From: a virus
Lineage: Duplodnaviria > Caudoviricetes
DNA length: 36,191 bases
Reading direction: 5' to 3' (one strand)
IMG/VR virus record: IMGVR_UViG_3300012942_000088
Coordinates: 1-36,191 of that record
Shown: positions 15,833 to 17,661 of the stretch, in pieces
Layout of the letters: each line of letters begins with the position of its first letter
Numbering within the stretch: the first letter of the stretch is position 1
Translations under genes and position numbers: made by a program
Notes under the pieces: generated by a model
Told to the model about the DNA's origin: nothing
Database searches by the model: none
Seen by the model: only the letters and a program-made list of their open reading frames with translations

Positions 15833-16321
15833 TCAGGGCGTGCCGCCGTCCGGGGTCAGGTTAAGGTATTCCTGCACGGTATCCAGGATGTTTTCGCCAT
15901 CCTTGTCGGACAGACCGATAAAGGGTCGCGCCGGAATGTCGCCCCACGGAATGGGGTGGTTGCGTGTGTCGCGTCCGAAGGCGCCTTGCAATGCGCCGAG
16001 CTGCTGCGTGCGCGCGTAGATCATGCCGCTGCTGATGGTGACACTGTTGGCCGTGGGCGCGCTGGCAATCCCATTGCTGAGCTGATGTGTTTCACCGATC
16101 AGTGGCCGCGTGCCTTTCTTGCGTGACAGTGTCAGCGGTGAGTTTTCGGGCCACGGGATGCCAGCCGGCGATATGCCGTCCTGGAAACGCTGCTTGGTGG
16201 ATTCCACCAGCAGCTCGCCGATGTCGATCATCAGCGGTGTCAGGTCGCCCAGGCGACCGCTCAGACCATGCAAGGTGGCTTGGGTGCGCTGCGCGTCGAT
16301 TTCCAGCGTGATATGGGTCAT
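15833..16321 (-). CDS. Virion morphogenesis protein (Mu gpG-like)
   Basis: L..IGE.L..ST..RF.....PAG.PW, YART.QLG and IPARPFIGLS motifs. Confidence 0.9.
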   Translation of the reverse strand: MTHITLEIDAQRTQATLHGLSGRLGDLTPLMIDIGELLVESTKQRFQDGISPAGIPWPENSPLTLSRKKGTRPLIGETHQLSNGIASAPTANSVTISSGMIYARTQQLGALQGAFGRDTRNHPIPWGDIPARPFIGLSDKDGENILDTVQEYLNLTPDGGTP

Positions 16322-16337
16322 GTGCTACGCTCCGCTT

Positions 16338-16419
16338 GCCCTGATGGCATTGTCTCGTCCGGCGCATACCCGGAAATCGTCATGGACGTGTAGAGGCTCG
16401 GTTGTCAGGGTTTCTTTTT
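16338..16419 (+). ncRNA. Putative antisense small structured RNA overlapping the muF stop codon
   Basis: Extended -10 TGcTACGCT at 16323-16331; nested helices with G-U pairs that favour the + strand; UUUCUUUUU tail. Confidence 0.5.
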
Positions 16420-17661
16420 GCCCAGCCAAAAGCTGAGTAACGCGAGCATGCGGCGCCCCTTGCGCAGCTCGAACGATGCCCCGATGCGGCGGCCATCGAT
16501 TTCGCCCTCCACGCGCACCACCGGTCGACCCTGCACGGTGCCGCTGCGCGTGATGCGGTCCACGGCATTGAGCAACTGCGGCAGCAGCGGGTAATCCCCG
16601 GACGCGACGGCCTCCTGGCCACGTTGCGCTTCGCCCACGTTGTTGCCGTGGCTGTCGGCGATGTGCAGCACCGCGCTGGCATCCAGCGCCCAGTCGAACC
16701 CGCGCACATCCACACCGGTGGCATGGTGCGCCAGGTCAGCCTGCGCATCCGTCAACAGCCCCAGGGTCTTGGGTGGCACGGCTTGCGCGGCAGGCTCGGC
16801 CAGCGCGTGCTGCGCGTAGCGGCGCACGTCATCGGCCACCGAGGGCAGACTGCGATAGGCGGTGGCCAGCGCATCGCGCGTATCCGCAGGCACGTCCTGC
16901 ATGTAGGCCTTGGCCAGGGTGTAAGGCCATTGCACGGTTTTGGCGGCCATCTCCTGCACGGCATCGGCCACCGTATTGCCTGGCATGTAGCCCCAGCCCT
17001 TGTCGACGCCGGGCGGCTCGCCCGTCTTGGGATCGATGGCATCCCAGCCGTCGGGCAGCGACTTGTCCGGATTGCCGCCCAGACGGCGGGCGGCGGCCGG
17101 TGAGCGTGCGCCCAACACGTAGCACTCGCAGCCCCAACCGTTGGGCGTGTAGTGCGTCTGCCAGAACGGGTGATCGGGTGGCAAGGTGATGCCATTCCAG
17201 CTGACATGCAGCGGGCGCGGGTGTTGCACGGCATCGTTGTGGCGGTATACCCACAGCGGAAACTTGCCGGCGCGCAGTTGCGTCAGGCGCCCGGCATGGT
17301 AACTGGTGCGTGCGTTGGTGACGTAGATGGTGCGCGTGCGCCAGGCCTGGCCGGCCGGCGTGTTCTCGCCGGTCCAGCCCGTCCAGCCGTGGCGCGCCAC
17401 AATGGCGCGGAAATCCTTGCGGAACGCCTCGATGGTGGTGCCTTCGGCAATGCCGCGATCGACGGCCGCAGCCAGGTCGGCGAGCAGGTCGGCCTTTTCG
17501 GCGCCGGCCACCATAAAGCCGTGGTCGTGCTCGGCCTTGAGCATGTCGTCCCACCATTGCGTGGGCACCAGGTTGCCCAGCTTCTGACGGAAGAACGCGA
17601 CCTGCGCATTGAACGGCTGGCGGAATGCACCGTCAATGGTCGAGGGCTGTGCCTCAGACAC
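16405..17661 (-). CDS. MuF (gp30) minor head protein with C-terminal PBECR-like nuclease domain
   Basis: GTG start at 17661; MuF motifs FMVAGA, R..TIY.TN.RTSY.AGR, RPLH.SWNG and PNGWGCEC; extra ~120-aa tail with LDASAVLHIADSHG..E..RGQ. Confidence 0.85.
   Translation of the reverse strand: MSEAQPSTIDGAFRQPFNAQVAFFRQKLGNLVPTQWWDDMLKAEHDHGFMVAGAEKADLLADLAAAVDRGIAEGTTIEAFRKDFRAIVARHGWTGWTGENTPAGQAWRTRTIYVTNARTSYHAGRLTQLRAGKFPLWVYRHNDAVQHPRPLHVSWNGITLPPDHPFWQTHYTPNGWGCECYVLGARSPAAARRLGGNPDKSLPDGWDAIDPKTGEPPGVDKGWGYMPGNTVADAVQEMAAKTVQWPYTLAKAYMQDVPADTRDALATAYRSLPSVADDVRRYAQHALAEPAAQAVPPKTLGLLTDAQADLAHHATGVDVRGFDWALDASAVLHIADSHGNNVGEAQRGQEAVASGDYPLLPQLLNAVDRITRSGTVQGRPVVRVEGEIDGRRIGASFELRKGRRMLALLSFWLGKKKP

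What the first reader, a model, noticed from the sequence alone, without database searches (positions are those of the whole stretch)
16321..16776. MuF-PBECR nuclease with no immunity protein but a dedicated antisense structured RNA: candidate RNA-neutralised virion toxin
Seen: MuF carries a ~120-aa C-terminal extension (LDASAVLHIADSHG..EAQRGQ..V...DY..LP.LL...D). The gap to gpG is only 83 nt and has no room for an immunity gene. On the opposite strand there is an extended -10 (TGcTACGCT, 16323-16331) followed by a ~74-nt nested hairpin. GCCCUGAUGGC (16338-16348) pairs with GUUGUCAGGGU (16401-16411); GUCUC pairs with GAGGC, GUCC with GGAC, and GGCG with CGUC. A UUUCUUUUU tract follows. Several pairs are G-U, so the fold favours the + strand, and the RNA overlaps the muF stop codon. 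Known: PBECR (phage Barnase-EndoU-ColicinE5/D-RelE-like) domains occur on MuF proteins, and described MuF polymorphic toxins are usually followed by a protein immunity gene. Inference: a lysogen-expressed sRNA acts as antitoxin, decoy or ligand for a head-delivered RNase, resembling a type III toxin-antitoxin pair built into a structural gene.
Basis: partly seen in the sequence, partly recalled or inferred. Interest (0 to 1): 0.85.

Follow-up and report, generated by a model that had tools for sequence, protein, structure and literature searches.

The report
Phage head nuclease with tRNA-mimic antidote
A phage head protein ends in a predicted RNA-cutting domain, and across many phages that domain is followed on the opposite strand by a conserved sequence predicted to make a small folded RNA with one arm matching the initiator tRNA; this RNA is likely the antidote to the nuclease, a job normally done by a protein.

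Summary
Confirmed and extended. MuF (16405-17661, minus strand) ends in a PBECR3 domain with both conserved histidines. The 74-nt antisense element (16338-16411) belongs to an RNA family absent from Rfam. It folds as a three-way junction, not the nested hairpin proposed, and its stems covary across 67 distinct copies. One arm matches the tRNA-fMet anticodon arm at 17 of 18 consensus positions (A38 is C). The RNA tracks the intact domain: present in 20 of 20 MuF-PBECR3 with the invariant His, absent in 5 of 5 without it (at least two independent losses) and in 91 of 91 other MuF genes. Its core hairpin also lies antisense inside polyvalent-protein genes (translated trace after 58 of 71 internal PBECR3 domains; background 3.9%). 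Orphan copies occur in bacteria lacking the nuclease, once as a 385-bp insert between CRISPR repeats. Best reading: a virion-borne tRNase neutralised by a tRNA-mimic RNA (0.65). Transcription, toxicity, binding and rescue are untested. I found no paper describing it. The scan noted a MuF-convergent RNA before on other DNA (e1-6788319), without these links.

The parts
16405..17661 (-). muF (Mu gpF-like minor head protein), 418 aa from a GTG start: Phage_Mu_F plus C-terminal PBECR3. Searches used 16405-17655, which lacks the first two residues.
   Evidence: Pfam, PHROG 220; homologue P0002 is 418 aa
16411..16728 (-). PBECR3 domain. His44 (16663-16665), His49 (16648-16650), G50, E55, R58, G59, Q60, D67 and S121 (P0001 numbering) are all present.
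   Evidence: H49 98%, H44 91% of 168 stretches; model pLDDT 91.7; fold search
16323..16331 (+). Predicted extended -10 promoter TGCTACGCT; overlaps the gpG ribosome-binding region on the other strand
   Evidence: G.TA...T upstream of 51 of 68 RNA copies; shuffled mean 8.3, maximum 18; 2 of 68 at the opposite end
16338..16411 (+). Predicted 74-nt structured RNA: P1 (16338-16348:16401-16411), internal loop, P2 (16352-16356:16393-16397), three-way junction
   Evidence: covariance model hit 58.2 bits (the window was in the training set); cognate-strand test
16358..16374 (+). P3: tRNA-fMet-like anticodon arm, UCCGG-CGCAUAC-CCGGA, with CAU at 16365-16367. The window has G at position 33 and C at 38.
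16378..16388 (+). P4 hairpin CGUC-AUG-GACG, the core shared by all variants of the RNA
16411..16419 (+). U-tract, possible 3' end; weak, since it is also antisense to Lys codons
   Evidence: sequence; no terminator call
15833..16321 (-). gpG (virion morphogenesis / tail completion), the next late gene; no immunity ORF lies between it and muF
   Evidence: Pfam PF05069, PHROG 26, ORF list

Best explanation
MuF carries a PBECR3 domain that is predicted to be an active RNase, likely cutting initiator tRNA, and the conserved antisense element behind it likely makes a small tRNA-mimic RNA that would bind the domain and block it. Shown by comparison: the fold, the covariation, the match to the tRNA-fMet arm, a conserved -10 box, and coupling of the RNA to the intact active site. 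Inferred: a host-polymerase promoter makes the RNA in the lysogen and soon after DNA entry. P4 and the junction would give the binding surface common to all PBECR3 partners. In this subfamily P3 would fill the substrate site as a poorly cleaved copy of the fMet anticodon arm. The RNA would protect the producer while MuF is made late in infection, and would protect lysogens, or bacteria holding orphan copies, from MuF brought in by related virions.
For: (1) Coupling: of 25 distinct MuF-PBECR3, the 20 with His49 have the RNA core. The 5 without it have none and abut gpG (gap 3 nt or overlap). The tree needs at least two separate losses; one is the window's sister L003 (65% identity, support 100/99). 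Phage Mu, whose MuF-C domain Iyer et al. call inactive (PMC5512222, passages), overlaps gpG by 4 nt and lacks the His segment of its relatives. (2) RNA-first scan of viral contigs: 21 of 22 hits sit at the 3' end of MuF-PBECR3. (3) Sample of 400 genomes: 6 had the domain; 5 of 5 terminal copies have the full RNA, and the internal copy has the -10 box and P4 antisense in its linker. (4) Translated trace of P4 after 58 of 71 internal domains against 234 of 6063 background windows; DNA of L318 and L321-L324 shows the embedded RNA. (5) Covariation: 98.7% of cells paired, all 5 P3 pairs with double changes, 0 of 500 shuffles as high; slid controls 33-56%. (6) Consensus arm identical to E. coli tRNA-fMet at 17 of 18 positions, against 6 of 18 for elongator Met and 8 of 18 for Ile2. 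(7) PBECR3 is placed in the colicin-like BECR group, whose characterised members mostly cut tRNA (bioRxiv 2026.08.28.747851, section 10 and passages); colicin D cuts between positions 38 and 39 (PMC9990079, passage), the position that differs here. (8) Orphans: 4 of 5 genomes tested hold the RNA and no PBECR3, and the fifth holds only a C-terminal stub.
Against: No transcript, toxicity, binding or rescue is shown. I found no paper with an experiment on PBECR3. Fold matches are middling (best Z 6.9; no Foldseek hit at E <= 0.001). The CAU loop is not universal: 8 of the 20 His-intact MuF-PBECR3 carry variants without it (6 circularly permuted, 2 with another loop), and phage RC1 has a different loop. 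So the anticodon-decoy step can hold only for this subfamily. The window's own arm matches at 14 of 18 positions and has G33, seen in 3 of 67 copies. C38 was part of my search patterns; the unbiased support is the 12 protein-first and 5 sampled copies. 13 of 71 internal domains show no P4 trace. The -10 box overlaps the gpG ribosome-binding site, which could explain part of its conservation. Some orphans lie beside decayed Mu prophages (L264, L266) and may be relics. Enrichment of orphans near defence genes was not tested against a background.
Confidence: 0.65

Rival explanations
1. The RNA is a cofactor, guide or cargo of PBECR3: the two form a particle that is packaged or acts after injection, and the RNA is not an inhibitor.
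For: Joint loss with the conserved His also fits a shared binding surface. Iyer et al. suggest RNA binding for inactive PBECR domains (PMC5512222, passage).
Against: The RNA is kept with its promoter, often in tandem copies, in genomes with no PBECR3. Inactive domains lose the RNA. There is no variable guide segment.
Confidence: 0.1
2. The RNA is a general decoy against host nucleases that attack initiator tRNA, and PBECR3 only processes it or travels with it.
For: Match to the fMet arm. Host defences deplete tRNAs including tRNA-fMet (PMC10264068, passages). Orphans lie near toxin-antitoxin genes in L187 and L236. Other fMet-arm mimics in phage leaders were noted by this scan (unchecked notes).
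Against: It does not explain 0 of 91 other MuF genes having this RNA, its fixed place inside polyvalent genes right behind each domain, or variants with no anticodon loop.
Confidence: 0.1
3. Ordinary antisense control: the RNA pairs with the muF-gpG message and lowers leaky expression of a toxic MuF.
For: It is complementary to the muF 3' end and to the gpG leader, with a convergent promoter.
Against: Pairing needs no conserved loop or junction, yet these are the invariant parts. Orphan copies have no target message. It covers the stop codon, not the start.
Confidence: 0.08
4. The element acts in the sense message or as DNA (processing site, terminator), or is a non-functional relic.
For: The minus strand is transcribed with the late operon (inference from gene order). 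No transcript was shown.
Against: G-U pairs and folding energy favour the antisense strand in 49 of 54 representatives. The -10 box is on that strand. Compensatory changes are present.
Confidence: 0.04

Closest known systems
Type III toxin-antitoxin systems (ToxIN, CptIN, TenpIN; PMC5086642, passages)
   Same: A protein RNase predicted to be held in check directly by a structured small RNA.
   Different: There the antitoxin is a tandem-repeat pseudoknot upstream in one operon, split from the toxin gene by a terminator and processed by the toxin. Here it is one three-way-junction RNA, downstream and antisense, with its own predicted promoter, sometimes inside the coding sequence. The toxin is a BECR domain on a virion protein.
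MuF polymorphic toxins (Jamet et al. 2017, PMC5576092, passages)
   Same: MuF domain plus a variable C-terminal toxin in the head module of a temperate phage; stub-plus-partner cassettes (L127, L259) resemble orphan modules.
   Different: [quoted passage not shown] Here an RNA occupies that place.
PBECR domains of polyvalent proteins (Iyer et al. 2017, PMC5512222, passages)
   Same: Domain family, fusion to MuF or portal, His plus Ser/Thr active site.
   Different: In the passages read they propose mRNA or crRNA targets, argue against tRNA, and mention no partner RNA. I did not see their supplementary files.
Colicin D and CDI tRNases (PMC9990079, passages; bioRxiv 2026.08.28.747851, section 10)
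   Same: Colicin-like BECR fold; tRNA targets; colicin D cuts at 38/39.
   Different: Neutralised by immunity proteins and delivered by secretion or contact.
Phage tRNAs that resist host anticodon nucleases (PMC10264068, passages; PMC11555353, search listing)
   Same: tRNA-like phage RNA with a change at a possible cut site.
   Different: Those are working tRNAs that replace cut host tRNAs. This RNA has no D arm, T loop or CCA end, is not called by ARAGORN, and tracks the phage's own nuclease.

Membership tests
PBECR3 (PF18812) | Profile match at the curated cut-off | tested here: inconclusive
   29.9 bits against 30; homologues at 83% and 74% identity carry PF18812
PBECR3 (PF18812) | [quoted passage not shown] | tested here: met
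   H44, H49 and S121 present; helix 39-49 and strand 116-127 in the model
BECR RNases | BECR fold | tested here: inconclusive
   Top rows are BrnT (Z 6.9, rmsd 2.9, 75 aligned), CdiA-CTs (Z 4.6-5.6), RelE (4.7-4.8) and colicin D (4.2); all below Z 8
BECR RNases | RNase activity | not testable with these tools
   needs an assay
Type III TA | Antitoxin made of tandem repeats upstream of the toxin in one operon with an internal terminator | tested here: not met
   single copy, downstream, opposite strand
Type III TA | ToxN, CptN or TenpN family toxin | tested here: not met
   Pfam gives only Phage_Mu_F and PBECR3
Type III TA | RNA binds and inhibits the toxin directly | not testable with these tools
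   inferred from co-occurrence only
MuF polymorphic toxins | MuF domain with a variable C-terminal extension in the head module of a temperate phage | tested here: met
   portal-muF-gpG order, transposase and AAA ATPase; several extension classes among relatives
MuF polymorphic toxins | Small immunity ORF downstream | tested here: not met
   83-nt gap; in several relatives the gap is about 50 nt and the RNA overlaps the gene end
tRNA genes | Cloverleaf with D arm, T loop and acceptor end | tested here: not met
   ARAGORN 0 genes in L001; Rfam no hit in the window
Any Rfam family | Covariance-model hit | tested here: not met
   none at gathering score in the window or over this RNA in the 20 loci; none at E <= 1 in 7 loci

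The most novel reading that the evidence does not exclude
A class of virion-delivered tRNases with RNA immunity that enforces phage entry. The injected nuclease poisons any cell that destroys the incoming DNA before the antidote RNA is transcribed. Bacteria answer by capturing the RNA gene with its promoter, into CRISPR arrays and beside restriction genes. Each PBECR or MuF-C family has its own tRNA-like RNA, which names its target.
Probability: 0.35. Interest if true: 0.97.

Novelty: new variant of a known kind. Interest (0 to 1): 0.9.

Why it matters
PBECR domains occur in up to 26% of phage and plasmid polyvalent proteins (PMC5512222, passage), with no immunity partner or tested target in the papers I found. 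A cognate RNA would explain how producers survive, and it predicts the substrate from the RNA sequence alone. It would add RNA immunity to polymorphic toxins and tRNA mimicry to RNA antitoxins. It also shows an RNA gene with its promoter hidden antisense in protein linkers, and a whole RNA gene sitting between CRISPR repeats. A 129-aa domain and an 80-nt RNA are easy to test in laboratory E. coli.

Tried and rejected
Nested inner hairpin: rejected. Known RNA family or tRNA: no hit. Intrinsic terminator and full sigma-70 promoter scans: nothing. Domain-only search of viral contigs gave one weak hit. Searches with P0135 and P0080 found no relatives. No solved structure by sequence (best E 0.22). 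Foldseek gave nothing at E <= 0.001. RNA-seq: I searched with the orphan locus L266, not the window. The 4 runs laid are contigs only; one 597-nt piece spans both RNA copies with their flanks and may be DNA, and one 47-nt piece covers the core. Inconclusive. Link to the lambdoid-leader fMet mimics noted by this scan: no blastn match in E. coli genomes, and a pattern allowing A38 gave 5 loci, four on contigs already known as MuF-PBECR3 and one new MuF-PBECR3; probably another family, not settled. P2 is less well supported than P1 and P3 (cognate strand best in 12 of 54, against 33 and 50). Two P3 probability lines used the wrong register and were redone. The formal one-clade test did not finish. 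No protein-RNA complex prediction was available. Literature searches that showed no description: (listings only). Subscription papers and supplements were not seen.

Full report
Setting. The window is a Mu-like temperate phage: transposase and AAA ATPase on one strand; terminase, portal, muF, gpG, protease and major head protein on the other. muF runs 16405-17661 on the minus strand (418 aa) and ends in PBECR3 (29.9 bits, cut-off 30). The domain keeps the residues conserved in 168 related stretches, including His49 (98%) and His44 (91%). Its model (pLDDT 91.7) is closest to BECR-type RNase toxins: BrnT Z 6.9, CdiA-CTs 4.6-5.6, RelE 4.7-4.8, colicin D 4.2. These scores are middling, and Foldseek gave no significant hit. 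RNase activity is a prediction.

The RNA. 16338-16411 on the + strand folds at -31.0 kcal/mol (z -2.55) as P1, an internal loop, P2 and a three-way junction with P3 and P4. A covariance model from 20 copies collected 68 matches, 67 distinct, from 61 selected sources. In P3 and P4, 98.7% of cells pair, all five P3 pairs show double changes, and no shuffle or slid control comes close. That alignment was fitted to these two stems, but RNAalifold found them on the unfitted alignment too. P1 and P2 were not in the model. The cognate 3' strand of P1 is the best partner in 33 of 54 representatives, and both stems beat all 20,000 permutations. The proposed strand folds better in 49 of 54. A -10-like box lies upstream of 51 of 68 copies against 8.3 in shuffles. 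It overlaps the gpG ribosome-binding site in phages but persists in many orphans. Rfam has no match.

tRNA mimicry. The consensus of P3 plus one base equals E. coli tRNA-fMet positions 27-44 at 17 of 18 positions; elongator Met gives 6 and Ile2 gives 8. Mean per-copy identity is 14.6 of 18; the window has 14 and an unusual G33. A blastn of one copy against phage records hit annotated tRNA-Met genes over 21 bases, though only at E 8. The one consensus difference is C at position 38, next to where colicin D cuts its tRNA (PMC9990079, passage). That this change makes the arm uncleavable is my inference. P4 may be a stub of the fMet T-stem (my reading; not tested).

Coupling to the nuclease. Protein-first searches gave 160 loci including the window; 10 ran off their contigs and 116 were distinct (the window's own record was left out). 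Among 25 PBECR3 tails, the 20 with His49 have the P4 core right behind the gene, and the 5 without it have none and abut gpG. None of 62 other extensions and none of 29 short MuF have it. The tree needs at least two independent joint losses, one in the window's sister L003. Phage Mu fits the pattern in the MuF-C family: no His segment and a 4-nt overlap with gpG. RNA-first, 21 of 22 viral hits lie at the end of MuF-PBECR3; 14 of the 22 were new contigs, some near-identical, and L104 is the exception. In a 400-genome sample, all 5 terminal PBECR3 domains had the full RNA.

The RNA follows the domain, not MuF. Rhizobium phage RHph_N28_2 has a stand-alone PBECR3 gene followed by a circularly permuted form. 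In L318 the domain is internal to a protein of about 2,000 aa, and the antisense strand of the next linker carries TGCTATACT, P4 and a U-tract. The translated trace of P4 follows 58 of 71 internal domains against 3.9% background; the set contains some near-duplicates. Four more loci show the whole permuted RNA embedded in coding DNA. P4 is therefore the shared core, and the CAU loop belongs to this subfamily only. The loop-less MuF subfamily also has a shorter protein loop after His49, lacking E55 and R58, so that loop may read the anticodon (inference).

Orphans. Of the 43 genome hits, two look like chance by eye, 20 have a PBECR3 match (several only stubs) and 21 have none nearby; six of these had only 300-nt flanks. 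In five whole genomes tested, four have no PBECR3 and one has only a stub. Several loci hold two copies. In L206 a 385-bp phage piece (muF end, RNA, promoter, gpG start) lies between two CRISPR repeats, at spacing 414 against 61. In L254 and L270 similar pieces abut the end of arrays. Two orphans lie next to MmeI-type restriction genes, two near toxin-antitoxin genes and two beside Mu remnants; the others lie among housekeeping or unnamed genes (52 of 65 ORFs from 16 loci scanned). I ran no enrichment control. L231 carries a MuF with a different tail, its own tRNA-like RNA, and then this RNA.

Mechanism. Joint loss with the catalytic residue and survival of the RNA without the protein are both what an antidote gene should show. 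A cofactor should not persist alone, and a plain antisense RNA should not conserve a loop. I put direct neutralisation with a tRNA-fMet target at 0.65. MuF proteins are head components thought to be delivered with the DNA (PMC5512222 and PMC5576092, passages), so the antidote would matter during late expression, in lysogens, and just after entry. The bolder reading, a poison aimed at cells that destroy incoming DNA, rests on the CRISPR and restriction neighbours and is untested.

Known systems. It would work like a type III toxin-antitoxin pair but fails the two defining features I could test (PMC5086642, passages). It is a MuF polymorphic toxin without the protein immunity gene (PMC5576092, passages). 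Only four papers in the library contain 'PBECR'. I read passages of two and they mention no partner RNA; the other two I saw as listings. Further searches showed no description (listings). Supplements and subscription papers were not seen. CRISPR and colicin labels not tied to a call are recalled.

Verdict. A real, widespread, apparently undescribed RNA family tied to intact PBECR3 domains. Function is inferred, not shown, and is directly testable. Interest 0.9.

Noticed in passing
L031, L037, L044, L046, L051, L065, L067, L078, L140, L141, L143, L154 (behind the muF stop, antisense): MuF tails in the MuF-C-like cluster are followed by tRNA-like elements with a T-loop motif (12 of 20 in the cluster). 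ARAGORN calls tRNA-Arg in L037 (4309-4385) and L067 (4224-4310).
   Followed up: partly
L033, L034, L047, L052, L063; L025, L073, L075, L079, L081; L020, L030; L027, L071, L072, L080: Further MuF tail classes (MuF-C, unnamed, PBECR2) have a gap behind the gene; most groups show their own recurring antisense motif, often with a -10-like box, judged by eye.
   Followed up: no
L206:1777-2226; L254; L270/L319: Phage fragments of several hundred bases holding the whole RNA gene lie inside or at the end of CRISPR arrays; how they were acquired is unknown.
   Followed up: partly
L315, just beyond the gpG stub: An intact MuF-PBECR3 plus RNA plus gpG stub ends at one CRISPR-repeat-like sequence (likeness recalled).
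   Followed up: no
L312:1760-1950 (Burkholderia phage phiE058 portal-PBECR3): The tail behind the domain folds strongly on the antisense strand and holds a P4-like variant.
   Followed up: partly
L104:454-664: Two RNA copies in a phage contig near a repressor-like gene, with no PBECR3 in the 2.6 kb held.
   Followed up: partly
L026, L039, L059, L068: MuF with unrelated tails (two ADP-ribosyltransferase-like) have gaps of 150-300 nt that appear to hold small ORFs, the usual protein-immunity layout.
   Followed up: no
L004:4636-4723: sRNA-Xcc1 (RF02221) match in a related phage, unrelated to this finding.
   Followed up: no
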